Below, piece by piece: positions 1-20,663 of a DNA stretch of 38,450 nucleotides. The notes beneath the pieces are model-generated. The model worked only from the letters and a program-made list of their open reading frames with translations, searched no databases and was not told where the DNA came from. This stretch comes from a virus (taxonomy: Duplodnaviria; Heunggongvirae; Uroviricota; Caudoviricetes), in IMG/VR virus record IMGVR_UViG_2778261515_000019, positions 1 through 38,450 of that record, one strand, 5' to 3'. A program made the translations under genes and the position numbers. Position 1 is the first letter of the stretch. Each line of letters starts with the position of its first letter.

Positions 1-351
1 ATGCGAGAGACAGTCGAAATTATGCGTTATCCCGTCACTCTTACACCCGCGCCGGAAGGCGGTTATATGGTTTCTTTTGTGGATATCCCTGAAGCGTTGA
101 CGCAGGGCGAAACTGTCGCTGAAGCGATGGAAGCGGCAAAAGATGCTTTACTGACCGCATTTGATTTTTATTTTGAAGATAACGAGCTTATCCCTTTACC
201 TTCGCCATTAAATAGTCACGATCACTTTATTGAAGTACCTTTGAGCGTCGCCTCTAAGGTATTGCTGTTAAATGCTTTTTTACAGTCAGAAATCACTCAG
301 CAAGAGTTAGCCAGGCGAATTGGCAAACCTAAATGTTGTAAACCCCAATAA
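1..351 (+). CDS. hicB: HicB-family antitoxin, C-terminally truncated (ORF ends inside predicted HTH, ...ITQQELARRIGKPK then 5 unrelated codons)
   Basis: N-terminal HicB/UPF0150-type sequence MRYPVTLTPAPEGGYMVSFVDIPEALTQGETVAEAMEAAKDAL; HTH-like ITQQELARRIG begins but the ORF stops 8 codons later; sequence character changes after ~337. Confidence 0.6.
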   Translation: MRETVEIMRYPVTLTPAPEGGYMVSFVDIPEALTQGETVAEAMEAAKDALLTAFDFYFEDNELIPLPSPLNSHDHFIEVPLSVASKVLLLNAFLQSEITQQELARRIGKPKCCKPQ

Positions 352-401: not shown

Positions 402-740
402 TCAATTACTTACGATGATACTTTCGCTTATCATTTTGTTGGTGATGATCTCCGGCAATGCTTCAAATGGTAGTGTTTCAGTGTAACCGTCTCGCATATC
501 ATCCCGACTAACAACACCACATTCATACTTAGTCTTTATGAGCTTCTCTAGCTTAGATGCATATTCCCCTTTACTGAATCGGAAAGACTTGACAAATGAT
601 TTAGGTTCTGGATCGGGGTCAGATAAAGCGAGTTTTCGGCACCCCGGTATTTGATACGCGTGTGAGATTTTAAAACGTGATCAGTGCAGTCCTAGCGCGG
701 TCGCTACGCGACTATTAACCCACTTCCCAGCCCTTACCAT
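402..740 (-). pseudogene. 112-codon reading frame interrupted by one in-frame TGA (codon 20); possible gene remnant or readthrough ORF
   Basis: ATG at 740..738, in-frame TGA at 683..681, frame stays open to TGA at 404..402; purine-rich stretch upstream of ATG; no similarity recognised. Confidence 0.25.
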
Positions 741-836
741 TACTGGATCTTTCCCTTCGTTAAAACGCGTTTTAGGCGCTTAGATTTTGCGTAAAACCAA
801 TAAATAAAATTACGCAAATTTAATGGAGGATAACCA

Positions 837-1394
837 ATGAAAGAAGAATTAACCCTTACAGAAATTTCCCGTTTATATGGCTATTCATTGAATGGTGGCG
901 GTAAGCGATGGTTAGAAAGGGGACTACCTTATAACACAAATACAAGACGTGTTCCGGTCAAGGAAGGTTGCGATTGGGTGCTAAAGAACATCATTAACCC
1001 GCTTAAACAAACTTCCATCAAAGAACAAATCGACGTAGAGAAATTACGCCGTGAGAGAGCATTAGCGGACGCAGCCGAACGAGAGAACCAGGAAGCAATG
1101 AATCTCCTGATTCCCGTCGGGTATGTGGAGCAGGAGCTAGCGGAATACTGCGGGAAAGTGAAGCAGACTATTTTGCAGATCGCCACAATCGACGCTTTAG
1201 AAATTCTTGAATCTGCCACTGACCAGAAAACATTAAAGAATAAGCTAAGGGAGATTATCGAGCGTCGTTTAAATGAAGTAGGGGACTTGTTCGAAAATGC
1301 AGATTTGGGAGAAGACGAGGAAGAAGAATTACCATTAATGGATGAACCGGAAGAACAAGAACCAGAAGAAGACGATGAATTTGATGTGTCTTAA
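837..1394 (+). CDS. Terminase small subunit-like DNA-binding protein (Nu1-type N-terminal HTH, acidic C-terminus)
   Basis: Strong RBS GGAGG; N-terminal HTH LTEISRLYGYS...WLERGLPY, GGGK and EKLRRE motifs reminiscent of lambda Nu1; Glu/Asp-rich tail. Confidence 0.45.
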   Translation: MKEELTLTEISRLYGYSLNGGGKRWLERGLPYNTNTRRVPVKEGCDWVLKNIINPLKQTSIKEQIDVEKLRRERALADAAERENQEAMNLLIPVGYVEQELAEYCGKVKQTILQIATIDALEILESATDQKTLKNKLREIIERRLNEVGDLFENADLGEDEEEELPLMDEPEEQEPEEDDEFDVS

Positions 1395-1490
1395 AAATTA
1401 GATACTAAATACATATGTGAAGGGTGTTGAACGGGTCAACGCCTACGGGGGAGAACATCCCCCGCTTAACTTTTAAGAGGATATAAAACT

Positions 1491-1775
1491 ATGGCTACTT
1501 TTATTACCTATGCTGTCATCATTACTATTCTGGCTGCTATCTCTGCTTATAAACTCGGAACCGAACCGAAAGAACGAGGCGAATTATTCTTAGGTGCGTT
1601 TGTTGCATTTGCTAGCCTTGCGTTAATTGTCGAAGGAATTTCTTATATTGTTGGCCTAGTTAGTATGACACTTTTTAACTTCCATCCAACTATTGCTATG
1701 CATTTGATGCTGACCGTACTTTGGGTATATTGCTTAATCGAATTTTTAACGTTTGTTTTCAAACAGACTAAATAA
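1491..1775 (+). CDS. Small integral membrane protein (about 3 predicted TM helices)
   Basis: RBS AAGAGG; hydrophobic segments ITYAVIITILAAISAY, LFLGAFVAFASLALIVEGI, LMLTVLWVYCLIEFLTFVF. Confidence 0.55.
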   Translation: MATFITYAVIITILAAISAYKLGTEPKERGELFLGAFVAFASLALIVEGISYIVGLVSMTLFNFHPTIAMHLMLTVLWVYCLIEFLTFVFKQTK

Positions 1776-1933
1776 TATTGTAATCTGCCTTTTCTCCTTA
1801 TGTGGTTTTAACAGGGAATTTTCGAAAGAGAGTTCCCGATTAAAAGCCATAAAACACATTCAGTACAGTGTTTTCATAGTCAGTGACTATACAACATAAA
1901 AACATAACAAGTATAGATTGAGTATTAATCCTC

Positions 1934-1959
1934 CCGCCCCGAAGGGGGCGGTTATTTTT
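1934..1959 (+). terminator. Rho-independent terminator
   Basis: CCGCCCC-GAAG-GGGGCGG stem-loop followed by TTATTTTT. Confidence 0.55.
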
Positions 1960-2036
1960 CTGGCTTTAAAGAATAATGTAGCATTATGTTCATTATAACC
2001 TCATCTTTGTTGTGCAAACCTAACCTAAACTTACTA

Positions 2037-2064
2037 GGGACTCTTCGGAGTCCCTTTTTTTTTT
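2037..2064. terminator. Terminator hairpin with UUCG-type tetraloop, abutting stop of minus-strand gene 2071..3072
   Basis: GGGACTC-TTCG-GAGTCCC followed by T10. Confidence 0.55.
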
Positions 2065-2070
2065 ATTGTC

Positions 2071-3072
2071 TTAAGCAACCAAACGAAGGGTAGGTCTTGC
2101 TTTCTTAATTTCATGTTTAATTTCTGGCTTAGTAAGTTTGCACAGTTCATCAATCGGCTGTAAGGTTGCTGGCGATCTACGTTGCGCGTACTTCTTATCT
2201 AAGCTAGCCCACAGATCCCGCGCTTCTTCTACTTCAACCAAAAGAATATTAGCTTGATGATAGAACTTAACCGCATCTTCCCACGTTTTAGCATTCTTGA
2301 TCTTAGTCTTCATGCTGTTAAATCGGCCTAGAAGCTGTTTTGCTTGTGCCTCTGCTTCTTTACGTGGGCGATCCCGTTCTTCCTGCTCTGCTTTCTCTTT
2401 GGCCTTAATCGCTTCCAGATTGGCTTTATATGCACAAACTTGATGGTCGTGGTCTTCAATACATGCTGGAACTTTAGGTTTTGTCACATAGAATTGAAAC
2501 ACAGTTTTTCCTAAATTGCCTTCCACATCGATAGGGAAGGTGTAGGATTTCATGTCGCTAAGTTCAACGCTGTTATCGTCGGTAGACACCAAAGCCAGAT
2601 TATAACGGCAATAGCTATTTTCTTTAATGCGGATCGTATAAACGTTTGATGTTTTCGGCGTACACTGAACAACATTACCAAAAGCGAAGACAGTAGCGAC
2701 ACCACCACGGCTAATCACAACCATAGCAACGCCTTTCTTCTCTTCATCGTAAAACCCACTAAGTTCATAACCAACCACAGAATAAACCAGACGATCACCA
2801 GTTTTATTGATGAAGCTGTTAATCATAGTATGTTCTTCTACCGTCAGCTTGATACCGTGTTTCATGATTTCTTTAATGACATTCTCAGAATCTTTAGCGC
2901 GGGGATTCTGAATAGAAAACAATTCCTGATAATAATCACCGCCGTTAAGATTATCGGTGAATTTGAAGTTTGCGGTAACTCCACCGTCAAAGGTGGAGGT
3001 CAGACGAACGTTTACCAGTGATTCAGTTTCTTCTTTGTTGAGTTTTTTGTTGTCGATTGCGTAAATGTTCAT
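2071..3072 (-). CDS. Hypothetical protein, 333 aa, globular N-terminal region plus charged C-terminal coiled-coil-like region
   Basis: Long ORF, 27-bp gap to upstream gene on same strand; KE-rich helical segment KEKAEQEERDRPRKEAEAQAKQ; no family recognised. Confidence 0.6.
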   Translation of the reverse strand: MNIYAIDNKKLNKEETESLVNVRLTSTFDGGVTANFKFTDNLNGGDYYQELFSIQNPRAKDSENVIKEIMKHGIKLTVEEHTMINSFINKTGDRLVYSVVGYELSGFYDEEKKGVAMVVISRGGVATVFAFGNVVQCTPKTSNVYTIRIKENSYCRYNLALVSTDDNSVELSDMKSYTFPIDVEGNLGKTVFQFYVTKPKVPACIEDHDHQVCAYKANLEAIKAKEKAEQEERDRPRKEAEAQAKQLLGRFNSMKTKIKNAKTWEDAVKFYHQANILLVEVEEARDLWASLDKKYAQRRSPATLQPIDELCKLTKPEIKHEIKKARPTLRLVA

Positions 3073-3099
3073 AGTAGTATTCCTCTTTTAAATTAAAAA

Positions 3100-4101
3100 T
3101 TAAGCTGCAAAATCAAGTAATTCGCGGTCCATCTCATCCATAGCCGGAATGGTTGGAACATATGGTTTATATCCTTCTTCTACATCAAGAAGGTTGTTTA
3201 AGCTGGCATCAGAAATATCACAAGAAACCACGGTTAACGCTGGTTTGATAATCGGCTGATCAACAGTAACCGCCTCCGGTGCTTCTTTTTCTTCTTTCGC
3301 TTCTTCCTGGGTAGCTGCCGGAACTACTGCTACCTTAACTTCCGGCGCTTTAACTTCTTTTGCTTCCAGTTCTTCTACACGGATTTCAAGAACTTCAATT
3401 TCTTTTTTCAGACTAATGTTTTCTTCCATCAGCATAGCGAATTTGCGTTCCATCTCAGCAAGACGTTGCTCAAAAGCACGATGCGCATCAGACAGAATCT
3501 GAATATCACGCTGCTGTAATTCTTCTTCGTAGTTGGAAACGGTTTTTTCTTTAGTGGTTTCTTTCCATACTGCCTTATCAACAGCGTTAACATTCAGTTT
3601 AGCTTTGTTGGAAACGAAGAAAGAAATATTGAATTTCTCACCGTGAGCACAATCAGACCATGCACCAACAACACTAGAAGCCAGAGCAAAGTTTTTAACT
3701 TTACCATTAACGAAACGGCCTTTAGCATCGCGGCGGGAAGCGTGGATCATGTTACCCCAGAGGCTACCAGCTTCATCTTGCAGGATAGACACTACATAGG
3801 ATTCGTCGCCGTTCTTGTAAGCGATAGCATATACTTCGCGCTGGTCTGGTTTAACCATTGCTTTCAAAGTAGCTTTCTTACGCTCTAAACCACGGTATTC
3901 TTTTTTCCAGTCGGAACCAGCATGATAGAGAGTGGTGTACAGAGAATCGATAGATTCTTCTTTATAAATATTAGTGCCAATAGTTAATTCGTCGGCTTCG
4001 TTGCTGCCATAGTTACGAATTTCGATATCTGCATCGTACTGATATTTTGCGGTGTCTGCGGTGTTGCTGTAAACGGTAATAGAGAAGTTATTTTGTTTCA
4101 T
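3100..4101 (-). CDS. Hypothetical protein, 333 aa, N-terminal globular domain, central coiled coil, acidic C-terminus
   Basis: RBS AGGAA upstream of ATG; heptad-like LAEMERKFAMLMEENISLKKEIEVLEIRVEELEAKE; same length as neighbour; no family recognised. Confidence 0.6.
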   Translation of the reverse strand: MKQNNFSITVYSNTADTAKYQYDADIEIRNYGSNEADELTIGTNIYKEESIDSLYTTLYHAGSDWKKEYRGLERKKATLKAMVKPDQREVYAIAYKNGDESYVVSILQDEAGSLWGNMIHASRRDAKGRFVNGKVKNFALASSVVGAWSDCAHGEKFNISFFVSNKAKLNVNAVDKAVWKETTKEKTVSNYEEELQQRDIQILSDAHRAFEQRLAEMERKFAMLMEENISLKKEIEVLEIRVEELEAKEVKAPEVKVAVVPAATQEEAKEEKEAPEAVTVDQPIIKPALTVVSCDISDASLNNLLDVEEGYKPYVPTIPAMDEMDRELLDFAA

Positions 4102-4202
4102 TGTAGTAATTCCTTATGTTAAGTAGAAGCCTCCTTGTTGCCGCAAGGGGGCTTTTTTATTGGTTAAAAGTTTCATAATGTAATTCTCAGTCAAAGTTGA
4201 TC

Positions 4203-4385
4203 TCACCAAACGGTAGCTTCAATCTTCACCTTGATTTCATATTTCTTTAAGAGTTTGTGGAAGGTTGATTTATCGATGCCTTCATTTTTAAACCACTCTT
4301 CAATCCTCACTCCCGGCGTTAGTTCAAAGTAGCGTTTTGCTTTTTCCAACATAATCTCGCGAGTAAATTTAACAGTTCTAGCCAT
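4203..4385 (-). CDS. Small HTH DNA-binding protein (60 aa from ATG at 4385; ORF track extends to 4421)
   Basis: RBS GAGGA 8 nt before ATG at 4385; HTH-like GIDKSTFHKLLKKYEI; first gene of minus-strand operon. Confidence 0.5.
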   Translation of the reverse strand: MARTVKFTREIMLEKAKRYFELTPGVRIEEWFKNEGIDKSTFHKLLKKYEIKVKIEATVW

Positions 4386-4484
4386 GTTACATCCTCTACA
4401 TTGTGGATTATTTTTTCTCATAAAAAGAGCTTTTCGCCCTTGATACTTCTATTTATAAAATGATTTTCAGAAAACCCTGTAAAA

Positions 4485-4506
4485 CCACTGTATATTCGAT
4501 CAGTGG
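4485..4506. promoter_or_regulatory. SOS-box-like palindrome (CTG-N10-CAG core) next to a promoter-like element for the minus-strand operon
   Basis: CCACTGTATATTCGATCAGTGG; left half ACTGTATAT matches the LexA consensus half-site as I recall it. Confidence 0.35.
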
Positions 4507-4569
4507 GAGCACGAATTGCTAAAGAGAAGATTAATAATTAATCAATTCGTGCAGTATTCAACCGAAAAA

Positions 4570-4591
4570 GCACTGTATATCTAACCAGTGC
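4570..4591. promoter_or_regulatory. Second SOS-box-like palindrome
   Basis: GCACTGTATATCTAACCAGTGC, same CACTG-N10-CAGTG architecture as 4485..4506. Confidence 0.3.
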
Positions 4592-4742
4592 CGTATTAAT
4601 TAACAGTGAATAAGGAGATTTTCAGAAGTGAACAATCATTTCTCACTTGTATTTAGTAGAGAGAAAATCTTGCTTATCATCTATATGGGGACTGTTTTGA
4701 AAATTTCAACCCCTACCAGTGAGAAAAAGTATAAAATAATCC

Positions 4743-4756
4743 TTGACAGTTGTCAA
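4743..4756. promoter_or_regulatory. Perfect 14-bp palindrome overlapping a -35-like hexamer
   Basis: TTGACAGTTGTCAA. Confidence 0.3.
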
Positions 4757-4957
4757 CACTCATGACCTAAGCGAGAAAAGGCTATCAAATTTTTTGTGCG
4801 AAAATGGCAAATAATGATTATCAACCTTTATAACCTATTATGGCACGGGGACCTTTTGACAATTTCTTTTAAATCATTAAGTTACAGCGATTTTTGATGA
4901 TTTTTTGGTTAAATAATATACAAGAATTTTCTATCAAAATATTTGAATGAATTTAAA

Positions 4958-5232
4958 GGTTTCCCCGCGATATCCCCACTTTAGAAGATGTATCCCCGTC
5001 ACCGTCCCCGCGTAAAATCCCCGTTTTGGAAGCAAAATCCCCCGGATTAGGGTAGTTTCCCCGCGATATCCCCGCGTAAAATCCCCGGTATTAGATGCGT
5101 ATTTTTATGTAAGTATATGATTTTAAATGCTTTCCCCGTGGTGTCCCCGTATCATCCCCACGTTATCCCCGACCTGTCCCCGTGGTATCCCTTCCCCGTC
5201 CCTTTCCCGTCCCCGTTTCAAAGTGGGGAAAC
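4958..5232. repeat. Iteron-like array of about 17 TCCCC(G) motifs, many spaced 10 to 11 bp
   Basis: Repeated units TTCCCCGCGATATCCCC and CCCCGCGTAAAATCCCC each occur twice; run TTTCCCCGTGGTGTCCCCGTATCATCCCCACGTTATCCCCGACCTGTCCCCGTGG; array bounded by GGTTTCCCC ... GGGGAAACC. Confidence 0.65.
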
Positions 5233-5269
5233 CAGTAATGACAGGGCTTAGAAGCGATCCAGACCTACA

Positions 5270-5310
5270 GACCAATATACCTACATACCATCAAACCAAT
5301 ATACCTACAA
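5270..5310. repeat. Direct repeat of 15 bp (ACCAATATACCTACA, two copies 11 bp apart)
   Basis: Exact duplication read directly. Confidence 0.45.
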
Positions 5311-5658
5311 AGATATTATGCGCCCTGCGGGGCGCGAGTAATCTGCTTCGAATCATTCAAGAAGGGATTTGTAATAGTGGTTACTAGATGATTCTAGATC
5401 ACTTTAATGATCATGAAAGGTATTGGTATCCCTTCGGGATTGCAACCTTCGGTTGCCAAATTGCTTCCTGATTATTATTTCTCCAAAAGAAAGATTCTTA
5501 TATTCTAAAGATACTTCTTCGTTTTGATGATGATTTAATCAAAATCTATGAAGGAGGCGAAGCCGACTGAATACCAATTCCTTTCAAATTAGACAAAAAT
5601 TTCTCGTTATAAATAATAGTGAACTTACTTTGATTCACTTTTTTAGAGGATTTCCACT

Positions 5659-6108
5659 ATGATCAATACTAAAACTCCTTTCATTCTTCTGGGTCTGAAC
5701 CATGATGATAATCTGGCTATGATGCATGTTTTCGCTAATCGTGGTTATAACATCATTCGTCATTCCGAAGACTCCAATTTCTCAACTGCTTTCTATGCTC
5801 TTAAACGTAATGGTCGCCCTACGGTGATCGTAGACTGCTTTACTGATGAAGGTCGTGAACAATACAACAACATTCCGGCAATTATTGTTCGTGATGACCT
5901 GCCGTTTGATGTTCGTGAATATGACGTTGATTTAGGCTCTTACTATGGGATCGCCGATCTTGACCAGATTATGGCTGATTATGGTAAACAACCCGCTAAG
6001 GAAGCCCAAGAACACGATGAAGACGACGAAGATGATGATTACACACCAATCGCGTTTTCTTCTCACAATAGCTTCTACGGCTACGATGAAGGCTTAGAAA
6101 TGCTGTAA
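5659..6108 (+). CDS. Hypothetical protein with strongly acidic C-terminal tract
   Basis: RBS GAGGA; 149 aa; EAQEHDEDDEDDDYTP acidic run. Confidence 0.55.
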   Translation: MINTKTPFILLGLNHDDNLAMMHVFANRGYNIIRHSEDSNFSTAFYALKRNGRPTVIVDCFTDEGREQYNNIPAIIVRDDLPFDVREYDVDLGSYYGIADLDQIMADYGKQPAKEAQEHDEDDEDDDYTPIAFSSHNSFYGYDEGLEML

Positions 6109-6130
6109 GTTAGGTCAACCCTTTGGCGTC

Positions 6131-6151
6131 TTGTCAAGGGGGTATTGACAA
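6131..6151. promoter_or_regulatory. Inverted repeat TTGTCAA-N7-TTGACAA upstream of gene 6230..6562, followed by further TTGACA-like hexamers
   Basis: TTGTCAAGGGGGTATTGACAA; additional TTGACAA at 6182. Confidence 0.3.
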
Positions 6152-6229
6152 AATTTTCTGGTTTTTTTATGATTATTGCACTTGACAATTTTGAACCTAT
6201 TTGACCTAGATTTGTAAAGAGGATGTAAC

Positions 6230-6562
6230 ATGAAAGAATTTACCATCACTAAATCCCTGTATGACTGGACTGTTAAAATCTCCAGCAAAACCGTTTCTGT
6301 AAGCCCTAGCCATGTAGAAAATGATTGGGGCGTATCCCGTGAAACTATCTCCCGTAGTATGCATGTTCCGTTTGATCTGATGTCCTTAACTGGTATTCAT
6401 GCAATGCTGGAAGTTCGCGAACAATTCGAAGCTGGTAATCACAATGCGACTCCAGTTAGCAATCACCTTCTTACTAATGAAGAACGTGAAATCATCGAAA
6501 ACTGGCGTTATGAATATGCGATTCCTTACTACGAAGAAGATCAGGTAGAAATCGATTGGTAA
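6230..6562 (+). CDS. Hypothetical protein, 110 aa
   Basis: RBS AGAGGA; clean ORF ending TAA; no family recognised. Confidence 0.55.
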   Translation: MKEFTITKSLYDWTVKISSKTVSVSPSHVENDWGVSRETISRSMHVPFDLMSLTGIHAMLEVREQFEAGNHNATPVSNHLLTNEEREIIENWRYEYAIPYYEEDQVEIDW

Positions 6563-6666
6563 TAAATTTCTATCATAAATAAAATTGTTCCGCGCGCCGT
6601 TGGCGTGTGGACAGTTAAAAACAGGAGGATTAAATCGCAAAACCGTTAATTAAGGGGAATCTTACT

Positions 6667-7518
6667 ATGAATACTGTTAAAACTATGAATACTGCACCGA
6701 CTTTCTTTGCTTCTCCGGTAGCTGCAAACGAAGATTATTCCGATGTTCGAATGACTTTGCGTGAAATTTCGGAATTTATTGGGGTACGTTTTGATAATAT
6801 CGAACGTAGTTTACATCGCCTTGTTAATCAAGGTGTTGTGAAACTCCCTCCAATGGAGGAAGTTAAAAACCACAGAAACCAGACAGTTAAAGATTATGTT
6901 TTTTCCGGTAAGCAAGGGCGATTGGATTCCATTGTTCTTATTGCTCAAAACGTACCTGAAATGACTCGTAAATTAGTAGAGCGTTGGGATTATCTCGAAA
7001 ATGAACTTTTAAAGAAAGAAGAAGAGAATAAAAGCCCGTTCCCAGATGCAAGCAAGATGACTAAGCTCGATTGGATGCGCGAAGCGGTTAAACTTGAAGA
7101 AGAAAAAGAACAACTGATTCAAGAAAAACAACAATTGGTTGATCTTCATATCCGTAAAGCCATCGACGCGCACAGTCTAACCCGCTTATTAGGCGAAAAA
7201 CGAGGCTCTACAAAGGTACAAATGATTCTGAAAGGGTTATGTACTGCTGGTGTTCTTGAGCGTCGTCTGGATGCTTCTGGTAAGCCTAACGGCTATGATC
7301 TGCTGCCTCCTGGCTATATGTTCGCTCGTATGTCGGCACACGGTCAGATCGAGTTCACTGCTGATGCTATTCCGCATCTCGTAAAACTCGGATTGCTTGA
7401 AGAAGAAAAGTCCGCAACTTTGAAATTGCCACAGCCGAATAACTCACGAGCAATCGTCAATAATACTGCTTTGCTGATTCGTCAGAATGCTGGATCACTG
7501 GAACACTTCGGACTGTGA
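6667..7518 (+). CDS. Phage regulatory protein (Rha/antirepressor-like N-terminal domain) with coiled-coil middle region
   Basis: RBS AAGGGGA; N-terminal MTLREISEFIGVRFDNIERSLHRLV resembles Rha-type winged-helix domain; ends with tandem stops TGATAA. Confidence 0.45.
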   Translation: MNTVKTMNTAPTFFASPVAANEDYSDVRMTLREISEFIGVRFDNIERSLHRLVNQGVVKLPPMEEVKNHRNQTVKDYVFSGKQGRLDSIVLIAQNVPEMTRKLVERWDYLENELLKKEEENKSPFPDASKMTKLDWMREAVKLEEEKEQLIQEKQQLVDLHIRKAIDAHSLTRLLGEKRGSTKVQMILKGLCTAGVLERRLDASGKPNGYDLLPPGYMFARMSAHGQIEFTADAIPHLVKLGLLEEEKSATLKLPQPNNSRAIVNNTALLIRQNAGSLEHFGL

Positions 7519-7526
7519 TAATTTTT

Positions 7527-7556
7527 GCCCCTGAATTTCAGGGGCTTTTTTGTTTT
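7527..7556 (+). terminator. Rho-independent terminator after the plus-strand early genes
   Basis: GCCCCTG-AATTT-CAGGGGC followed by TTTTTTGTTTT. Confidence 0.65.
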
Positions 7557-7563
7557 CTATAGG

Positions 7564-7596
7564 TATAAAAAAAGGCCAACCCCGAAGGATTGGCCT
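7564..7596 (-). terminator. Terminator for minus-strand gene 7603..7833
   Basis: AGGCCAA-CCCCGAAGGA-TTGGCCT with A-run on plus side (U-run in minus sense). Confidence 0.5.
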
Positions 7597-7602
7597 AGAG
7601 AA

Positions 7603-7833
7603 TCAAATTCCGGTAGCTTCTACCATTTCACCGTCAACCTGAACAAAGAATTTCAAATCAACTTTATGGAGTGATTTGTAGAATTGAGCAATTGAAATAC
7701 CGTGTTCACTCAATACTTGCTCTTTTTCAGCTTTACCTTTCGGTGCTTGATAGTACGCTTTTACAATCGCTGCCAGTTGTTCACGATCAAAACGGCAAGG
7801 ACGTCCGCGAGTAGCTTTAGTAGTCATAGTCAT
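7603..7833 (-). CDS. Small DNA-binding protein (AT-hook-like RGRP plus HTH)
   Basis: TRGRPCRF motif and HTH-like GISIAQFYKSLHK; RBS GGAGAAATGA context. Confidence 0.5.
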   Translation of the reverse strand: MTMTTKATRGRPCRFDREQLAAIVKAYYQAPKGKAEKEQVLSEHGISIAQFYKSLHKVDLKFFVQVDGEMVEATGI

Positions 7834-7861
7834 TTCTCCAAATTAAAGTGAATGTTCACCT

Positions 7862-8464
7862 TTATTTAGAGGATTTACATTTTATCGGAAAAAGTTCTCC
7901 ATCGTCAACGGTCATAAAGAACTCTGCCTTAATCCCGTACTTCTTCAACCGTGAATAGTATGTACCCCGACTTATATCAACCTTGCGAAGCACTTCAAAG
8001 AACCCTTTAGGATCGTTGTAATAGTGGCTATAACGCACGTTAGCGAGTTCAACGAATAGTTCCCTTGTATCACCATAGCCTTTCTTGAAAGCCTCGTTAC
8101 GATAGCGTGTAATTGCGTGATTCAATCTCTTCTGTTTCAACACTTCTCGGATCGGCTTCCACTGCAACCGATAGATAGGACCGTCATCCACTCGATAATA
8201 ACGCTTGATATCAAAATCAAACCAATCTCGGACTCTCTGGAACTCTGTATGTGATGTTCTATGCTTCTTAAAGAAGTTGTGAACGTCTGTATAACCATTA
8301 TCGCGGTAAAATTCTATTAAAATCTCTTTCGCTTCCTCACGACTAAATCCAGATGTTGTGTAGTCGGTTTTTAAATGCTTATGCTTAACTGGTAAACGAT
8401 ATTCATGATCGGTACAAGACAAGGCTAATTCTAATTCATCTCTTTGTTGCTGATTAATTAGCAT
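7862..8464 (-). CDS. DNA-binding protein with C-terminal resolvase/IS-type HTH
   Basis: 200 aa; C-terminal DISRGTYYSRLKKYGI HTH; divergent from terL. Confidence 0.5.
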   Translation of the reverse strand: MLINQQQRDELELALSCTDHEYRLPVKHKHLKTDYTTSGFSREEAKEILIEFYRDNGYTDVHNFFKKHRTSHTEFQRVRDWFDFDIKRYYRVDDGPIYRLQWKPIREVLKQKRLNHAITRYRNEAFKKGYGDTRELFVELANVRYSHYYNDPKGFFEVLRKVDISRGTYYSRLKKYGIKAEFFMTVDDGELFPIKCKSSK

Positions 8465-8549
8465 ACAACCCCCTTTAATTAATACCAGTATTTATCAAAA
8501 TATCAACAATTTAATAAATACCTTCATATTTCGTAATGAGGGTAATTAC

Positions 8550-10454
8550 ATGAAACTGATTTCAAATAAGGCAAAATTAAAAAAGATTCTCAGAAATATC
8601 TCTGCTGCAATTCGCCCACCTAAAGCCATGAAACCTAGCGAATGGGTAGAGGCTAATGTAGTTGCAACCGATGGTGTTAAAGCCGGATCGCTAATTAAAT
8701 TGCATCCCTTCCAACGTGGAATGATGGACGCGATCACCGAAGACCGTAGAAAAATTGTGTTTAAATGTTCGGCGCAGTTGGGTAAGACCATGATTCTTAA
8801 CGGAATTATCTTCCATCGGATCGCGAGTAACCCTACGAATATTGGGGTGTTGCAAAGTAACGTTAGGGAACTAAATTCTTGGATCGCTGGTAAGGTGAAG
8901 CCAGTATTAGAGGCAACCCCAGAATTAAAGGCGATGATCACCGACAAATCAGATCGCAATGCCGTTAACAACTCATCGATTATTCAGCTTCGTAACGGAT
9001 CATTCATGTATTTCATGTCGTTGAATAGTCCGTCACATCTTCGCGGTAAAACACTCCCTTTGATTATTCTTGATGAAGTTGATGCGGCTGATGAGTCAGA
9101 CGAAGGGAACCCGATCCAGCTAGCGGAACAACGCGCAACCACTTTCGGGGAAGATGCAAGGATCGTAATTGCTTCCACTCCAACCGCTCGTGATGGGGCG
9201 ATTAACCAACAATGGGAACTCTCGGATAAGAGAAAATATCATGTCGTTTGTCAGCATTGCGGACACCGACACGTAATGGAATGGAGTAACGTTTATTTCG
9301 ATTGGCATACGATTAACGGTAAGTCATTACCTAACCCAGATACAGCCGTTTACCGCTGTCCTGCATGTGAAACCGACTGGACCGAAGGGGATCGCCTACG
9401 TGCTGTTGCTAAGGGAGAATGGGTCGCCACCGAACCAAATGCGGAAGTAATCGGTTTTCATGCTAACCGCCTTATGTCTCCGTTTAGTTCTATCCGTGCG
9501 TGTGTGGTGGACTTTGCTGATAGCTACGCGAATATGTCCCTGGCAACGTTCTACAATACAGTCCTCGGTGAAACCTTCGATGATCTTAACGAAGACCGCA
9601 CAGCCGACGAATTAGAAACGCTGAAAACTGATATTAGACTAGACAATATTCCTGATGATGTACTGGCTCTGGTTGGTGGAGTTGACCAGCAAAAAGACCG
9701 TCTGGAATCTACCTTGCTGGGTATTTCTCGTAAAGGGCTATGCGTAGTTGATCACCGATCATTCTATGATGTGAACTGCGAACGCCACGAATCGCCAGCA
9801 TATGACCAGCTTTACAACTTCCTGAAAGCTAAATTCTATACCCGATCCGGTGAACGAATCCCGATGTTATCTGCTTTCGTGGACTCATCGAACGGACGAG
9901 CTACAAACGTGATCTATCGATTCTGTAGTCGGTGGCAAAATCTAACCGCCATTAAAGGCGCAAGCAATGTTGATGCACCAATCCTTCCGGTAAAAGACAC
10001 AAGAACGGGTGGTTTTACCCTTAAAATTCTGGGCGTAAACAACCTTAAAACGATGATCCGTGAAATGATTAACCGGAATTTGAGAGATGGCGATCCTCAC
10101 ACTGTCTTCCAGATTGGTGACGTTCCTGATGACTATTGCGAGCAATTGCTTTCTGAACAGTTGAAACGGCAGGGTAATACCACACGTTGGGTAAAAGTTG
10201 GTCAGCAACGAAACGAGGCTCTCGACTGCCTGGCTTATTCCTATGCTGCTTCTCGCCATGTACTCAATAAAATGTCATGGGAAAAACTCGAAGCCATCAA
10301 AGATAGTTTGAACCGTGAACCAGAAGAATCCGTAGAAGCTCCTAAATCGCAATCTGACGAGAAAATAGAAGAAACTAAGCCAATCACACGACCACAACGT
10401 CAAAACATCGCCAGACGCCCAAATAGAGGCCGTGGCTGGGTAACATCGTTCTAA
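8550..10454 (+). CDS. terL: Terminase large subunit, GpA (lambda A) family
   Basis: 634 aa; motifs LHPFQRGMMDAI, ILDEVD, NTVLGETF, IKGAS, RNEALDC align with lambda gpA as recalled; start of long plus-strand morphogenesis operon. Confidence 0.85.
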   Translation: MKLISNKAKLKKILRNISAAIRPPKAMKPSEWVEANVVATDGVKAGSLIKLHPFQRGMMDAITEDRRKIVFKCSAQLGKTMILNGIIFHRIASNPTNIGVLQSNVRELNSWIAGKVKPVLEATPELKAMITDKSDRNAVNNSSIIQLRNGSFMYFMSLNSPSHLRGKTLPLIILDEVDAADESDEGNPIQLAEQRATTFGEDARIVIASTPTARDGAINQQWELSDKRKYHVVCQHCGHRHVMEWSNVYFDWHTINGKSLPNPDTAVYRCPACETDWTEGDRLRAVAKGEWVATEPNAEVIGFHANRLMSPFSSIRACVVDFADSYANMSLATFYNTVLGETFDDLNEDRTADELETLKTDIRLDNIPDDVLALVGGVDQQKDRLESTLLGISRKGLCVVDHRSFYDVNCERHESPAYDQLYNFLKAKFYTRSGERIPMLSAFVDSSNGRATNVIYRFCSRWQNLTAIKGASNVDAPILPVKDTRTGGFTLKILGVNNLKTMIREMINRNLRDGDPHTVFQIGDVPDDYCEQLLSEQLKRQGNTTRWVKVGQQRNEALDCLAYSYAASRHVLNKMSWEKLEAIKDSLNREPEESVEAPKSQSDEKIEETKPITRPQRQNIARRPNRGRGWVTSF

Positions 10455-10526
10455 TAACTCGCCGTCCTTCGGGGCGGCTTACTCCTAAATATTGTTAATC
10501 CAATAACAATTAAATAAGGGGTGATT

Positions 10527-11021
10527 ATGAGTTTAGAACTAATTCCCTTAGTAATTCGTAAAGGCGAAAAAATCACGCTGGCGAATGAAGAGGGTGTAAC
10601 AATTCAGGTAGGAAATAGTAAAGGTATCATTTATCAGGTTGATGATACTCCGGCTAATCACGAGATTAAAACCTTAGATTTTGCCGAGGGTAAATATACC
10701 ATCGTAACCACTTTGGAAGAAGAACTGGTATCAATGCAGGAATTAACTGTATTGCCAGTATTCGCCAAACAATCCAAAAAAGAACATCTGCGGGAGACTA
10801 TCGCCAAAATCGAGCAAGTTATTTTCGCCCGTTTATCTGGGGACGAAGCCGCATTATCTCAAATGACCGTGAAAGGGAATACTTTCGCCTATGAGTCATT
10901 AGGTGTTCTCCAGCAATTAAAGACTGATTATGAACGTCAACTGTCTAAATTAATTCAAGCCGAACGACGTAAACAGGGAATTAGCCCGATTAAAAATATC
11001 AAATTACGTCTTACGCGATAA
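10527..11021 (+). CDS. Head-tail joining or head-completion protein (position-based; gpW position)
   Basis: Between terL and portal; RBS AAGGGGTG before ATG at 10527 (track ORF starts at upstream GTG 10521). Confidence 0.4.
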   Translation: MSLELIPLVIRKGEKITLANEEGVTIQVGNSKGIIYQVDDTPANHEIKTLDFAEGKYTIVTTLEEELVSMQELTVLPVFAKQSKKEHLRETIAKIEQVIFARLSGDEAALSQMTVKGNTFAYESLGVLQQLKTDYERQLSKLIQAERRKQGISPIKNIKLRLTR

Positions 11022-11031
11022 GGGGTAAATC

Positions 11032-12543
11032 ATGTTTAATCTTTTTCGACGCAATAAGGCGGTAGAAACTCCAGTTAAAACTAATCACCGCCAGCAACAA
11101 CAAAAAATCTTTATCGACAAACAAGTAGAAAAATTCCAGAAAGATTTGTCTAAGCGTTCTTTGGGCTTAGTTGGTGATCGCATTGATGGATCGCTTCAAC
11201 AAGATACTATCACAGGAACCTTCAATAAGGCTCTCAAATCGAACGGTAAACGCCTTTATGATCAGGGTCGTACTCTGGCTATAAACAATGCTGTAGGTAA
11301 GCGATACAAGCAGTATATCGTTGACCAAGTTGTTGGTACGGGGCTTGATCCGAAGCCGTCAATCGTTAAATCAAATGGCAAACTTGACACCGCACTGAAT
11401 AAGCAGATCGAGAATGCTTTCTGGAAGTGGGCGCAGAGTGCTAAACGCTTCTCTCGCAACGGTCGCTTTAACTTCCGTGAAATGCTGGCAATGGCAGAAT
11501 CTGAACGTGTTCAGGGTGGAGAATGCTTCATCGTTTTAACCAAAGAAAACAATGAGTTACAAGTTTCTATTCTGTCTGCTGATAGGTGCGACTGGTCGCT
11601 TAGTCGTGAAATAAGCAAAGACCGCGCTATCTATCAGGGGATCGAGTATGACGTAGAAACAATGCGCCCTGTTGCATACTGGTTTAGAAAAATCAATCTA
11701 CTGACTCAGACCTACACTGGCGAAAATTATCGCGTAGATGCTTCGCAAGTGTGTCATTACTATCAGCCCTTGTGCGCCGAGAGTTTGCGCGGCGTGACCG
11801 ACTTCCTACCAGTGATTAAGGATATTGCGCATCAAGAAGCGTTCCGCGAAGCTGTACTGGTCCAGAAACGAATTTCAGCTAGTAGCATGGCGTTCATCGA
11901 GCGTCCGAAAGATTCTGGTGACGATTTTGATACTGGTGAAGATGATGAACAATATCAAGCGCCGGAAGTTATTCACGATTTCGCGCCAGGTACTATTCAG
12001 GAATTACCGGAAGGGGCAACGATCAAGAGTATTCAATCCACGCAAAGCGGCGATGATTTCAATTCCTTTAACGCTGGTATGTTCACTAGCATAGCAATGG
12101 GTCTTGGCGTGTTCAATCAGGGCTTAACTGGTGATACTAGCCAAATCAACTACAGCGCCGCGCGTTTCGGTGAACTACTTCAACGTAACCGTGTTAAATC
12201 GCTACAAAACAAATTGATTGAAACAGTGGTATTGCCAATTTTTGAAGCATATCTACGCCATTATTCCGCGCGTGGTATTGTTCCGATTCGTATTACTGCA
12301 ATCCCGCATATTATCGAGAACACTACTATTATTCGTCCGCGTTTTGAGTCCGTCGATGTTATTAAAGATGTGAACGCTGATATTGCTTTAATTGATAAAG
12401 GACTTAAATCACGTACTGCTGTTATTTTGGAACGTGGCGACGATCCAGAAAAGGTATTTTCAGAGATCAGGTCTGAATCCAGTGCACTAAATATTATCGT
12501 TAATGGCGAGGGTGAAGAAAAAAATTCCCCAGCCGATCCCTAA
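11032..12543 (+). CDS. Portal protein (lambda gpB-like)
   Basis: 503 aa immediately after terL and connector gene; size and position typical of portal. Confidence 0.75.
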   Translation: MFNLFRRNKAVETPVKTNHRQQQQKIFIDKQVEKFQKDLSKRSLGLVGDRIDGSLQQDTITGTFNKALKSNGKRLYDQGRTLAINNAVGKRYKQYIVDQVVGTGLDPKPSIVKSNGKLDTALNKQIENAFWKWAQSAKRFSRNGRFNFREMLAMAESERVQGGECFIVLTKENNELQVSILSADRCDWSLSREISKDRAIYQGIEYDVETMRPVAYWFRKINLLTQTYTGENYRVDASQVCHYYQPLCAESLRGVTDFLPVIKDIAHQEAFREAVLVQKRISASSMAFIERPKDSGDDFDTGEDDEQYQAPEVIHDFAPGTIQELPEGATIKSIQSTQSGDDFNSFNAGMFTSIAMGLGVFNQGLTGDTSQINYSAARFGELLQRNRVKSLQNKLIETVVLPIFEAYLRHYSARGIVPIRITAIPHIIENTTIIRPRFESVDVIKDVNADIALIDKGLKSRTAVILERGDDPEKVFSEIRSESSALNIIVNGEGEEKNSPADP

Positions 12544-14598: not shown

Positions 14599-14685
14599 AA
14601 TAACGAAGAATTGCCGGAAGAAATTCCGGTAGTTACGGCGAAAGCCACAGCTAAAAAGGTGGGACGTCCACCGAAAGCAAAATAA
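14599..14685 (+). other. In-frame 28-codon extension after the capsid TGA stop (candidate readthrough peptide NNEELPEEIPVVTAKATAKKVGRPPKAK)
   Basis: Frame open from TGA (14596-98) to TAA (14683-85); 24-nt block GTTACGGCGAAAGCCACAGCTAAA identical to the block after the tail-tube gene. Confidence 0.3.
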
Positions 14686-14690
14686 TAATT

Positions 14691-14716
14691 AGCCCTGCCT
14701 AACGGTGGGGCTTTTT
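14691..14716 (+). terminator. Rho-independent terminator (copy 1 of duplicated module)
   Basis: AGCCCTGCC-TAAC-GGTGGGGCT followed by TTTTTTG. Confidence 0.7.
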
Positions 14717-14747
14717 TGTATGTAAATACTCCATAAAGGGGGTAACT

Positions 14748-15038: not shown

Positions 15039-15444
15039 TAATATGCCGAGACTGAAAATCAAACGCGCCTTGCAAGATATTATCGAACAAGATTTAGGTC
15101 TGGCTTTAAACGTAGAACAAACTCAGCAAGGCTTTAGTGATGACGTGGTTTGTTGGATCACTGGAATGAATGAGACTTACACGCGTGTTCGTGGTGGTAA
15201 TGCAATGCAAGCTGAATGCGTTATCGAAATGCAATTATATTCTCAGATTCATGAAACCAAAATTCATGAGGGTATTTGCCAGATAATCCAGATTCAGCCG
15301 GATAACCCACGTTTTAAAGATTTGGGCTTCGCTATTTCAGATATCACTCCAGTAGCTTCTAATACCGATTATGACGATGATTCTAGTGATGGTGGTATCG
15401 TTGGGACACTTAGCCTTAAATTTTCTTATGTAGCGCGTTTTTAA
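15022..15444 (+). CDS. Head closure / tail completion-position protein (start at ATG 15022 overlapping upstream gene by 17 nt)
   Basis: RBS AGGGGGT 5 nt before ATG 15022; track ORF starts further upstream at 14974. Confidence 0.4.
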   Translation: MLATVNNMPRLKIKRALQDIIEQDLGLALNVEQTQQGFSDDVVCWITGMNETYTRVRGGNAMQAECVIEMQLYSQIHETKIHEGICQIIQIQPDNPRFKDLGFAISDITPVASNTDYDDDSSDGGIVGTLSLKFSYVARF

Positions 15445-20509: not shown

Positions 20510-20629
20510 ACTAACGAAGAACTTCCCGAACCGGAACCACAGCCGGAACATGAAGCGGTGGTGATTCCAGAAGTAGAAGAAGTTACGGCGAAAGCCACAG
20601 CTAAACGAAGCCGCAAGGCTAAAGATTAA
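20510..20629 (+). other. In-frame 39-codon extension after the tail-tube TGA stop (TNEELPEPEPQPEHEAVVIPEVEEVTAKATAKRSRKAKD)
   Basis: Frame open from TGA (20507-09) to TAA (20627-29); shares AACGAAGAA(T/C)T.CC.GAA start and the identical 24-nt block with the capsid extension; indels relative to that copy are multiples of 3. Confidence 0.3.
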
Positions 20630-20634
20630 TTATA

Positions 20635-20663
20635 AGCCCTGCCTTAATGGTGGGGCTTTTTTA
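20635..20663 (+). terminator. Rho-independent terminator (copy 2 of duplicated module)
   Basis: AGCCCTGCCTT-AAT-GGTGGGGCT followed by TTTTTTATT. Confidence 0.7.

What the first reader, a model, noticed from the sequence alone, without database searches (positions are those of the whole stretch)
837..10454. terS-like gene separated from terL by a ~7-kb block with opposing transcription
The Nu1-like DNA-binding gene (837..1394) and the GpA-family terL (8550..10454) would normally be adjacent in cos-type phages. Here they are split by membrane, regulatory and unknown genes, the iteron array and a minus-strand operon. Either the 837..1394 product is not the functional small terminase, or an accessory island has inserted between the packaging genes.
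Basis: inference. Interest (0 to 1): 0.5.

Follow-up and report, generated by a model that had tools for sequence, protein, structure and literature searches.

The report
Split terminase genes in coli prophage
In this E. coli prophage the gene for the small DNA-packaging subunit really does lie 7 kb from its large-subunit partner, because an old rearrangement shared by a whole group of enterobacterial prophages put the phage's regulatory region between them; this is an unusual gene order, not a new kind of machine.

Summary
ORF 837-1394 is the only Nu1-like ORF in the window. TerL at 8550-10454 has GpA ATPase and nuclease domains. 7,155 bp separate them.

837-1394 is a divergent but genuine Nu1-type small terminase. 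It matches PHROG 57, and its profiles hit lambda gpNu1 structures. In 14 more distant enterobacterial relatives its homologue abuts terL. Its dN/dS is 0.04-0.19.

The split is conserved, with gaps of 4.7-7.2 kb, in E. coli, Salmonella, Proteus, Buttiauxella and Atlantibacter relatives. It is therefore a derived trait of one clade, not a recent event.

The intervening block is not an accessory island. Its backbone is present in all 16 close relatives and holds nearly all the phage's non-structural, non-integration genes. It consists of two divergent operons around a 1.2-kb non-coding region that carries an 11-bp-phased repeat array. The array motif covaries with the neighbouring ~330-aa protein, not with TerS. 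Small cargo slots exist within the block.

No alternative TerS sits next to terL. A conserved non-coding element directly upstream of terS also lies upstream of terS in distant relatives, adjacent-type and split (Buttiauxella), and is the best cos candidate, though this is unproven.

The window is a whole prophage inserted in hicB. Interest is modest: a new gene-order variant of a known system.

The parts
322..333 (.). attL core GGCAAACCTAAA. The host hicB gene (1-~333) is truncated here, and phage DNA starts at about 334.
   Evidence: In relatives hicB is annotated as partial at both ends of the prophage. The same 12 bp occur at attR in L021.
580..836 (+). Conserved non-coding region directly upstream of terS. 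Its core (~598-680) reads AGGTaCT...GCGAGTTTTCGGCAcCCCGGTATTTGA...GAGATTTTAAAAC. A 9-bp inverted repeat, TTTGCGTAA/TTACGCAAA, lies around 781-817. This is a candidate cos/TerS-binding region, or the terS control region.
   Evidence: It is conserved in all E. coli relatives whatever lies upstream. An nhmmer profile finds it within ~250 bp upstream of terS, and ~650 bp in one (L026), in eight distant relatives with E from 6e-7 to 9e-3, plus one marginal hit at E=0.23; these include the split-type L022. There is a single copy in the window. Its function is inferred.
837..1394 (+). terS: a divergent Nu1-type small terminase subunit (185 aa) with an N-terminal winged HTH, a long central helix and a disordered acidic tail ending EFDVS.
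   Evidence: PHROG 57, E=1e-10. PDB profile hits to 6hn7_B, 1j9i and 7lw0. 46 of 77 remote homologues match Pfam Phage_Nu1. AF2 model. Homologues abut terL in 14 relatives. dN/dS is 0.04-0.19.
1491..1775 (+). Small membrane protein (94 aa, three hydrophobic segments) in a variable cargo slot downstream of terS.
   Evidence: Hydropathy. Present in only 8 of 16 relatives. Tn6330 with mcr-1 occupies this slot in E. coli PE15.
1934..2055 (+). Two terminator-like hairpins that end the terS unit and face the convergent minus-strand operon.
2071..3072 (-). 333-aa protein of unknown function (N-terminal domain plus coiled coil); last gene of the leftward operon. Present only in relatives whose array has the TCCCCG motif.
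3100..4101 (-). 333-aa protein (N-terminal domain, coiled coil, acidic linker, C-terminus ...LDFAA). Probably the protein that reads the repeat array.
   Evidence: The family of this protein covaries 16/16 with the array motif across relatives. It is remotely homologous to the equivalent proteins of other motif types. DNA binding is inferred.
4203..4421 (-). 72-aa HTH-like protein, first gene of the leftward operon (family F0).
   Evidence: Present in 15 of 16 relatives by tblastn, and an F0-family gene occupies this position in all 16 by clustering. It clusters with 7603-7833.
4422..5658 (.). 1.2-kb non-coding control region between divergent operons. It holds the array at 4962-5214: 16 same-strand TCCCC(G) motifs spaced mostly 11 or ~20 bp apart.
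   Evidence: A non-coding region of similar size (1.2-1.9 kb) is found in all relatives, with four different motifs. There is no Rfam match.
5659..6108 (+). 149-aa protein with an acidic C-terminus, first gene of the rightward operon (family F1, core).
   Evidence: Present in all 16 relatives at 35-95% identity. No family match.
6230..6562 (+). 110-aa protein of unknown function; variable slot.
   Evidence: Present in 7 of 16 relatives.
6667..7518 (+). Ant/Rha-like regulator (283 aa) with an N-terminal winged HTH.
   Evidence: PHROG 63 'anti-repressor Ant', E=6e-15. Relatives are annotated as Rha family and match Phage_pRha.
7527..7596 (.). Back-to-back terminator-like hairpins between the rightward operon and the minus-strand pair.
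7603..7833 (-). 76-aa F0-family HTH-like protein (core).
   Evidence: Present in all 16 relatives at 62-100% identity. It matches both halves of 7862-8464.
7862..8464 (-). 200-aa core protein divergent from terL, made of two repeats of a three-helix-plus-hairpin module. It is not a terminase.
   Evidence: Present in all 16 relatives at 68-98% identity. AF2 pLDDT 74.5. No Pfam, PHROG, PDB or Foldseek match. hhalign against the Nu1 family gives probability 0.5%.
8550..10454 (+). terL: lambda gpA-type large terminase.
   Evidence: GpA_ATPase and GpA_nuclease domains.
10521..11021 (+). Head-tail joining protein.
   Evidence: PHROG 5774, E=5e-10.
11032..12543 (+). Lambda-family portal protein.
   Evidence: Phage_portal_2, E=1e-66.

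Best explanation
The window is a ~38-kb temperate siphovirus prophage inserted in hicB. It packages DNA with a lambda-type two-subunit terminase. The small subunit is the 837-1394 product and the large subunit is the 8550-10454 product. In the ancestor of one enterobacterial clade a rearrangement placed the phage's early/regulatory module between the two genes. That clade includes E. coli, Salmonella, Proteus, Buttiauxella and Atlantibacter prophages, with TerL at least ~51% identical. The module consists of two divergent operons around a 1.2-kb control region with a phased repeat array, plus a divergent pair of winged-helix-like genes. TerS works in trans, so adjacency is not required. Its N-terminal winged HTH would bind a site near its own gene, most probably in the conserved 260-bp element just upstream, which would be cos. 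Its central helix would oligomerise. Its acidic C-terminal tail would recruit TerL. Shown here: the identity of the two genes, the conservation and derived nature of the split, the core status of the block, and the absence of another TerS. Inferred: where cos lies, how the subunits contact each other, and what the block's proteins do.
For: TerS identity:
- PHROG 57 'terminase small subunit', E=1e-10, over residues 24-169.
- A family profile hits the gpNu1-type DNA-binding domains 6hn7_B, 1j9i and 7lw0 at E~1e-3. After adding remote homologues the E-values are 1e-12 to 1e-16.
- 46 of 77 remote homologues match Pfam Phage_Nu1 and 18 match DUF1441.
- The AF2 model shows a small HTH, a 49-residue helix and a disordered acidic tail. 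This is the three-part TerS layout described in PMC7617512.
- It is the only such ORF in the window.

Orthology and partnership:
- In 14 Enterobacterales loci with TerL 37-45% identical, the homologue (E=1e-24 to 1e-35; 27-28% identity over the whole length in the five aligned) ends where terL begins.
- TerS and TerL identities fall together: 88-96/94-98% in E. coli, 54/82% in Salmonella, 55/65% in Proteus, 36-39/51-54% in Atlantibacter and Buttiauxella, about 28/39-45% in the outgroup.
- dN/dS is 0.04-0.19.

The split is conserved:
- The terS-terL gap is 4.7-7.2 kb in every relative with both genes.

The block is core:
- Families F0, F1 and F3, an Ant/Rha-like gene (15 of 16), a ~330-aa gene and a non-coding region of 1.2-1.9 kb are in all 16 close relatives.
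- The rest of the prophage is structural, lysis, integrase plus three small genes, or cargo.

Other points:
- The array motif covaries with the ~330-aa protein and not with TerS alleles.
- A conserved DNA element lies upstream of terS in adjacent-type relatives and in split-type L022.
Against: - The protein itself does not reach any Pfam or NCBIfam terminase model.
- Foldseek on its model found nothing significant.
- No experiment or virion-end data show that this prophage packages DNA or where cos is.
- Similarity of the upstream element to lambda cos is not significant for most relatives: z<=0.6, and 2.5-2.7 for only two.
- terS lies in its own small transcription unit between opposing operons, so its co-expression with terL is unproven.
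- The functions of the block's proteins are unknown. Calling the block 'early/regulatory' rests on elimination, one Ant/Rha-like hit and its layout.
Confidence: 0.75

Rival explanations
1. The block is a recently acquired accessory (moron or defence) island that happened to land between adjacent terS and terL. The phage does not need it.
For: Parts of the block are variable. 1491-1775, 6230-6562 and 2071-3072 are present in only some relatives. Coverage of the first 12 kb among E. coli genomes is 53-90%. Tn6330 with mcr-1 has inserted here in strain PE15. G+C is somewhat lower, 0.34-0.42, than in the late genes. Outgroup relatives have terS next to terL.
Against: The backbone (F0, ~330-aa gene, long non-coding region, F1, Ant/Rha-like gene, F0, F3) is present in the same order in all 16 close relatives across three genera. 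An analogous block is present in Buttiauxella and Atlantibacter. No mobility gene or flanking repeat bounds it. Outside the block the prophage has only structural, lysis, integrase and three small genes, so it would lack regulators without it.
Confidence: 0.08
2. 837-1394 is a Nu1-like DNA-binding protein that no longer serves as terminase. It might be a recombination directionality factor or regulator placed next to attP. Packaging would then use TerL alone or another small protein.
For: The gene lies only ~500 bp from attL, next to a serine-integrase att site. Nu1-type domains are MerR/excisionase-like winged helices, and 11 of 77 remote homologues also match HTH_17. The gene is transcriptionally separate from terL.
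Against: Homology to TerS covers the whole protein, including the oligomerisation region, not just the HTH. Its homologues abut terL in 14 relatives. It diverges in step with TerL. No other TerS-like ORF is present. gpA-type TerL proteins are accompanied by a Nu1-like gene even in distant phyla (L038-L047).
Confidence: 0.07
3. The real small terminase is one of the conserved genes touching terL: 7862-8464 or 7603-7833 upstream on the opposite strand, or 10521-11021 downstream.
For: 7862-8464 is as conserved as TerL (68-98%) and always lies 85-105 bp from the terL start. It is built of HTH-like modules.
Against: It is on the opposite strand. It matches no terminase family, solved structure or fold. 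hhalign against the Nu1 family gives probability 0.5%. It is absent from Buttiauxella and Atlantibacter and from the outgroup, which still have terS and terL. 10521-11021 matches a head-tail joining family.
Confidence: 0.05
4. The prophage is defective and the gene order is a scar of decay, so the split has no bearing on a working packaging system.
For: No isolated, characterised phage of this lineage was found. The nearest phage record, DCP80, is a mosaic. The window carries an IS1595-like transposase and other cargo.
Against: All structural, lysis, integrase and terminase ORFs are intact. The same order is kept across genera under purifying selection. Whole-prophage contigs that break at the att site suggest excision in sequenced cultures.
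Confidence: 0.05

Closest known systems
Phage lambda terminase (gpNu1 + gpA) with cos directly upstream of Nu1
   Same: TerL has both gpA domains. TerS belongs to the Nu1 superfamily, with a gpNu1-like winged HTH. The portal is of the lambda family. A conserved non-coding element lies just upstream of terS, where lambda has cosN-cosB.
   Different: In lambda Nu1 overlaps A (191-736 and 711-2636). Here 7.2 kb with opposing transcription separate the two genes. The protein misses the Pfam Phage_Nu1 threshold. The resemblance of the upstream element to lambda cos is not statistically supported.
TerL-adjacent Nu1-like genes of related enterobacterial prophages (Yersinia, Leclercia, Phytobacter, Kluyvera, Pluralibacter and others; loci L024-L037)
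   Same: The five aligned share 27-28% identity over the full length with 837-1394. All 14 match the family profile at E=1e-24 to 1e-35. They have the same TerL family, head-tail joining gene and portal order, and the same upstream DNA element.
   Different: They keep the canonical terS-terL adjacency. Their C-terminal tails are Ser/Thr/Lys-rich rather than strongly acidic with a terminal EFDVS motif.
Phage P2, where the small (M) and large (P) terminase genes lie in divergent operons separated by scaffold and capsid genes (from my own knowledge, not tested here)
   Same: It is a cos phage whose two terminase genes are not adjacent and are transcribed in different units. This shows that adjacency is not mechanistically required.
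   Different: The terminase families are different. The intervening genes in P2 are late capsid genes (~3 kb), not the regulatory region.
Iteron or centromere-like phased repeat arrays (plasmid iterons, lambda ori, R1 parC), as a comparison for the array inside the block (from my own knowledge)
   Same: A dense same-orientation array with ~11-bp phasing, and a neighbouring gene whose allele covaries with the repeat sequence.
   Different: The ~330-aa proteins match no Rep, O or ParR family. Their fold was not tested. Whether the array is an origin, an operator or something else is unknown.

Membership tests
Nu1-type small terminase (Pfam PF07471 Phage_Nu1 / PHROG 57) | The sequence matches the family model above its curated threshold. 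| tested here: inconclusive
   There is no Pfam hit at E<=0.1 and none in NCBIfam. PHROG 57 matches at E=1e-10 over residues 24-169. 46 of 77 profile-linked homologues reach Phage_Nu1 at E<=0.01.
Nu1-type small terminase (Pfam PF07471 Phage_Nu1 / PHROG 57) | An N-terminal winged helix-turn-helix like the gpNu1 DNA-binding domain. | tested here: met
   The family profile hits 6hn7_B, 1j9i and 7lw0 at E=9e-4 to 6e-3. The extended profile reaches E=9e-16 to 5e-12. The AF2 model has two short helices and a strand before residue 41.
Nu1-type small terminase (Pfam PF07471 Phage_Nu1 / PHROG 57) | A central helical self-association domain followed by a C-terminal TerL-binding segment. | tested here: inconclusive
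   The predicted helix 41-89 and further helices to residue 153, then a disordered acidic tail at 156-185, fit the layout (PMC7617512). Oligomerisation and TerL binding cannot be tested with these tools.
Nu1-type small terminase (Pfam PF07471 Phage_Nu1 / PHROG 57) | The gene lies immediately upstream of, and is co-oriented with, a gpA-type terL. | tested here: not met
   The gene is co-oriented but 7,155 bp away in the window and 4.7-7.2 kb away throughout the clade. The feature is met by its homologues in 14 outgroup loci.
Nu1-type small terminase (Pfam PF07471 Phage_Nu1 / PHROG 57) | The protein binds cosB and stimulates TerL cos cleavage. | not testable with these tools
   This needs biochemistry. 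Only a conserved candidate site at 580-836 was found.
Lambda gpA-type large terminase | An N-terminal gpA ATPase domain and a C-terminal gpA endonuclease domain. | tested here: met
   PF05876, E=8e-61, residues 50-291. PF20454, E=1.5e-46, residues 301-571.
Accessory (moron/defence) island | Present in some close relatives and absent from others, leaving an intact phage. | tested here: not met
   The backbone genes and the non-coding region are present in all 16 close relatives. Only individual slots vary.
Accessory (moron/defence) island | Bounded by mobility genes or repeats, or carrying recognisable defence or virulence cargo. | tested here: not met
   There is no transposase or integrase within 837-8550. 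No flanking direct repeats were found. PADLOC was not run. An actual transposon (Tn6330) is seen only in other strains.
Replication origin with iterons and cognate initiator | Repeated binding sites whose sequence covaries with a neighbouring initiator gene. | tested here: met
   Four motif types covary 16/16 with the family of the ~330-aa protein, with 11-bp phasing.
Replication origin with iterons and cognate initiator | The protein belongs to a known initiator family, and an AT-rich unwinding element and DnaA boxes are present. | tested here: not met
   Neither 333-aa protein has a Pfam, PHROG or NCBIfam match. Unwinding elements and DnaA boxes were not examined. An operator or silencing array is equally possible.

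The most novel reading that the evidence does not exclude
The split may be functional rather than incidental. The cos-like element plus terS would form an autonomous cassette placed right beside attP and transcribed apart from the late operon. This could let the Nu1-like protein couple excision to packaging, for example by doubling as the directionality factor of the serine integrase, or by making packaging initiation depend on the excised, circularised state. The whole regulatory region would then also be the first DNA to enter the capsid.
Probability: 0.06. Interest if true: 0.7.

Novelty: new variant of a known kind. Interest (0 to 1): 0.3.

Why it matters
Annotation pipelines and people look for the small terminase next to the large one. 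In this common prophage lineage most copies are therefore labelled 'hypothetical protein'. The lineage is found in E. coli, Salmonella and Proteus, and in some strains it carries mcr-1. Recognising the true terS and its likely cos region matters for three things: predicting packaging type, predicting transduction potential, and understanding satellite interactions. The clade also offers a natural test of whether terS-terL adjacency and co-transcription matter for terminase assembly, because sister lineages keep the canonical order. The intervening block carries a phased repeat array whose sequence switches together with a neighbouring protein. That may be an uncharacterised immunity or replication specificity module and is worth a separate look.

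Tried and rejected
- Direct Pfam and NCBIfam scans of 837-1394 gave no terminase hit.
- Foldseek of the AF2 models of 837-1394 and 7862-8464 against the PDB gave nothing below E=1.
- Megablast of the first 12 kb against phage records found no match.
- The only phage record with a related TerL (43% identity) is DCP80. There, ~26 kb of late genes of this lineage is flanked by T4-like sequence on both sides, so its terS-terL spacing cannot be read.
- A genome-contig scan with the TerS alignment found nothing. The scan with a TerL alignment worked.
- Could the repeat array be the TerS binding site? Rejected: the two TerS N-terminal alleles each occur with three motif types.
- Could 7862-8464 be a TerS? 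Rejected.
- Could 10521-11021 be a TerS? Rejected: it matches a head-tail joining family.
- Comparison of the upstream element with the lambda cos junction: nhmmer found no hit, and local alignment scores were within shuffles for six of eight relatives. The result is inconclusive.
- Contigs of about phage length were checked for ends at cos. They break at the att site instead.
- An Rfam scan of the window found no match.
- Literature searches for this prophage or for hicB insertion found nothing relevant.
- A homologue search for the 3100-4101 protein gave only close relatives (75-98% identity). No structure was attempted for it.

Full report
**What the window is.** The first 333 bases are the 5' part of the host antitoxin gene hicB (Pfam HicB_lk_antitox). 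In complete E. coli genomes that carry the same element, hicB is annotated as cut in two. hicA and the 5' piece lie on one side. The 3' piece lies ~38 kb away, after a large serine recombinase and three small genes. The same 12 bp, GGCAAACCTAAA, occur at window 322-333 and at the far junction in the relative. The window ends about 40 bp before that junction. The window is therefore one nearly complete integrated prophage. Its map runs: attL; terS-like gene; a 7-kb block; terL; head-tail joining gene; lambda-family portal; protease-capsid fusion; siphovirus tail genes; endolysin. On the opposite strand follow a cargo segment, the integrase and three small genes. The cargo segment (UvsW-like helicase, nucleotidyltransferase, IS1595-like transposase; 31895-35244) is absent from the relative.

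**The observation.** TerL carries both gpA domains. The gap between the two genes is 7,155 bp. It holds nine ORFs in four transcription units of alternating direction, bounded by terminator-like hairpins, plus a 1.2-kb non-coding stretch. The small ORF after the terS-like gene has three strongly hydrophobic segments. The repeat array is real and extreme. Sixteen TCCCC motifs, all on one strand, lie at 4962-5214 and are spaced mostly 11 or about 20 bp apart. Thirteen of the window's fourteen TCCCCG hexamers are in these 250 bp.

**Is 837-1394 a small terminase?**

- Alone it matches no Pfam or NCBIfam terminase model. It does match PHROG 57, 'terminase small subunit', at E=1e-10 over residues 24-169.
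- A profile of its close homologues hits the solved DNA-binding domains of lambda-type small terminases (6hn7_B, 1j9i, 7lw0) at E around 1e-3.
- An exhaustive profile search found 248 proteins at E<=0.001, mostly 150-200 aa and aligned end to end. Of 77 of these, 46 match Pfam Phage_Nu1 and 18 match DUF1441. The enlarged profile hits gpNu1 structures at E=1e-12 to 1e-16.
- The AlphaFold model (pLDDT 71) shows a short N-terminal helix-turn-helix, a helix spanning residues 41-89, further helices to residue 153, and a disordered acidic tail. This is the three-part layout described for small terminases: DNA binding, oligomerisation, TerL binding (PMC7617512).
- A fold search with this elongated model was uninformative.
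- No other ORF in the window resembles the family.

**Synteny.** This was the decisive test. A scan of one genome per species with a TerL alignment returned 28 loci. In 14 Enterobacterales loci whose TerL is 37-45% identical, an HMM of the 837-1394 family finds a homologue (E=1e-24 to 1e-35) that ends where terL begins. This is the canonical arrangement, which the literature describes as typical (PMC4524720). These loci come from Yersinia, Leclercia, Phytobacter, Rouxiella, Pseudocitrobacter, Enterobacter, Mangrovibacter, Buttiauxella sp., Pluralibacter, Pseudescherichia and Kluyvera. The five aligned (L036, L024, L033, L026, L028) match 837-1394 over their whole length at 27-28% identity. Even gpA-type TerL genes from other phyla have a Nu1-like gene directly upstream (L038-L047).

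Every relative with TerL at least 51% identical has the split instead:

| Relatives | terS-terL gap |
|---|---|
| E. coli loci | 6.2-7.2 kb |
| Salmonella | 6.5 kb |
| Proteus | 5.6 kb |
| Buttiauxella gaviniae | 5.1 kb |
| Atlantibacter | 4.7 kb |

TerS and TerL identities decline together along this series. Within E. coli the gene shows dN/dS of 0.04-0.19. So 837-1394 is the orthologue of bona fide TerL-adjacent small terminase genes, it is maintained by selection, and the separation is a derived trait of one clade.

**No alternative small terminase sits beside terL.**

- The downstream 166-aa gene matches a head-tail joining family.
- The upstream 200-aa gene (7862-8464) is on the opposite strand and is as conserved as TerL. 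It is built of two copies of a three-helix-plus-hairpin module that also makes up the neighbouring 76-aa protein.
- That 200-aa gene matches no terminase family, solved sequence or fold. It is unrelated to the Nu1 family by profile-profile comparison.
- It is absent from Buttiauxella and Atlantibacter and from the outgroup.

**What the block is.** The ORFs between terS and terL were clustered across 16 close relatives. This gives one fixed backbone, in this order:

1. A small HTH-like gene and a 313-341-aa gene on the minus strand.
2. A non-coding region, 1.2-1.4 kb in the E. coli and Salmonella relatives and 1.9 kb in Proteus.
3. A ~150-aa gene and an Ant/Rha-like regulator on the plus strand.
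4. A second small HTH-like gene and the 200-aa gene on the minus strand.

Only a few slots vary: 1491-1775, 6230-6562 and 2071-3072. In E. coli PE15 the mcr-1 transposon Tn6330 sits in the first of these slots. Outside the block the prophage has only structural, lysis and integration genes plus three small unknown genes. The block must therefore hold most of the regulatory and replication-control functions. This is an inference by elimination, supported by the Ant/Rha-like match and the divergent-operon layout.

The repeat motif in the non-coding region differs among relatives: TCCCCG, TTGCCCC, CCTACAC or ATCCCTA. It changes together with the family of the ~330-aa protein in all 16 cases. It does not track the alleles of the small HTH gene, the 150-aa gene or the TerS N-terminus. 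The array therefore belongs to the ~330-aa protein, as an origin, operator or similar site, and is not the terminase recognition site.

**Where cos may be.** The 260 bp upstream of terS are non-coding. They are conserved in all E. coli relatives even though the DNA further upstream is unrelated cargo. A profile of this region finds a matching element within ~250 bp upstream of terS (~650 bp in one, L026) in eight distant relatives (E from 6e-7 to 9e-3), with one further marginal hit (E=0.23). These include adjacent-type loci and the split-type Buttiauxella locus. The element occurs only once in the window. DNA conservation across relatives whose TerL is only 37-54% identical points to a functional site. 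Its position matches lambda, where cosN-cosB occupies the 190 bp before Nu1. A direct comparison with the lambda cos junction was not significant for most relatives. The assignment as cos therefore remains a hypothesis; a late promoter or leader is the alternative. In both gene orders examined the element lies next to terS, so in the split clade it sits away from terL. This suggests that a cos-terS cassette and the regulatory block exchanged places in the clade's ancestor.

**Verdict.** The packaging machinery itself is an ordinary lambda-type terminase. The 'inserted island' option is right only in that the interposition is derived; the interposed DNA is an old, conserved core module. The result is a new gene-order variant of a known system. 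It is of modest interest, with practical value for annotating a widespread prophage lineage. The phased array and its covarying protein are the more intriguing by-product.

Noticed in passing
window 4962-5214, with 3100-4101(-) and 2071-3072(-); relatives L003-L018: A helically phased, one-strand repeat array whose motif exists in at least four versions among relatives. It switches 16/16 together with the family of the adjacent ~313-341-aa protein. This looks like an exchangeable specificity module (origin or immunity) with no known family match.
   Followed up: partly
window 3100-4101(-) and 2071-3072(-); L003-L023 equivalents: The ~300-340-aa proteins share a layout of N-terminal domain, coiled coil and acidic linker. 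Most end in two alanines (LDFAA, AYAYAA, RKAA, LNIAA, RYAA), which is reminiscent of an ssrA-like ClpXP degradation tag and suggests unstable regulators.
   Followed up: no
window 1-351 and 322-333: The prophage is inserted in the hicB antitoxin gene of the hicAB toxin-antitoxin locus. The shared 12-bp core is GGCAAACCTAAA. The fused ORF ends with five phage-encoded residues. Whether HicA stays neutralised in lysogens is an open question.
   Followed up: partly
window 31895-35244 (-): A UvsW-like helicase, an aminoglycoside-2''-adenylyltransferase-like nucleotidyltransferase and an IS1595-like transposase lie between endolysin and integrase. They are absent from the relative in strain OkiPb01713, so this is a cargo segment.
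   Followed up: partly
L052 (E. coli PE15, NZ_CP041628) 2979-7632; also strain HeN100: The colistin-resistance transposon ISApl1-mcr-1-pap2-ISApl1 is inserted in this prophage lineage, between terS and the leftward operon.
   Followed up: partly
L001/L002 (Escherichia phage DCP80, PQ671644): About 26 kb of late genes of this lineage (TerL 43% identical, terS-like gene after the endolysin) are flanked on both sides by T4-like sequence in a record classified as a Gaprivervirus. This is either a misassembly or a striking mosaic.
   Followed up: partly
window 14631-14717, 20581-20661 and 357-400: An ~85-nt segment (the end of a coding region plus a strong terminator hairpin) is repeated after the capsid gene and after the tail tube gene. 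The same hairpin occurs inverted just inside attL.
   Followed up: no
window 15209-15299 (-): ARAGORN calls a 91-nt tRNA-Gln on the minus strand inside a plus-strand structural gene. This is probably a false positive.
   Followed up: no
L022 9305-9763 and L023 9351-9806: In the Buttiauxella and Atlantibacter relatives an endonuclease VII-like gene sits directly upstream of terL. DCP80 also carries an endonuclease VII gene within its late-gene segment. It may be a packaging accessory nuclease.
   Followed up: no
window 1349-1394 and TerS homologues: TerS of the split clade has a strongly acidic tail ending in a conserved aromatic motif (EFDVS, EFDLS, EFEVI, DYDFDD). The TerL-adjacent homologues have Ser/Thr/Lys-rich tails instead. 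The TerL N-terminus here is Lys/Arg-rich.
   Followed up: no
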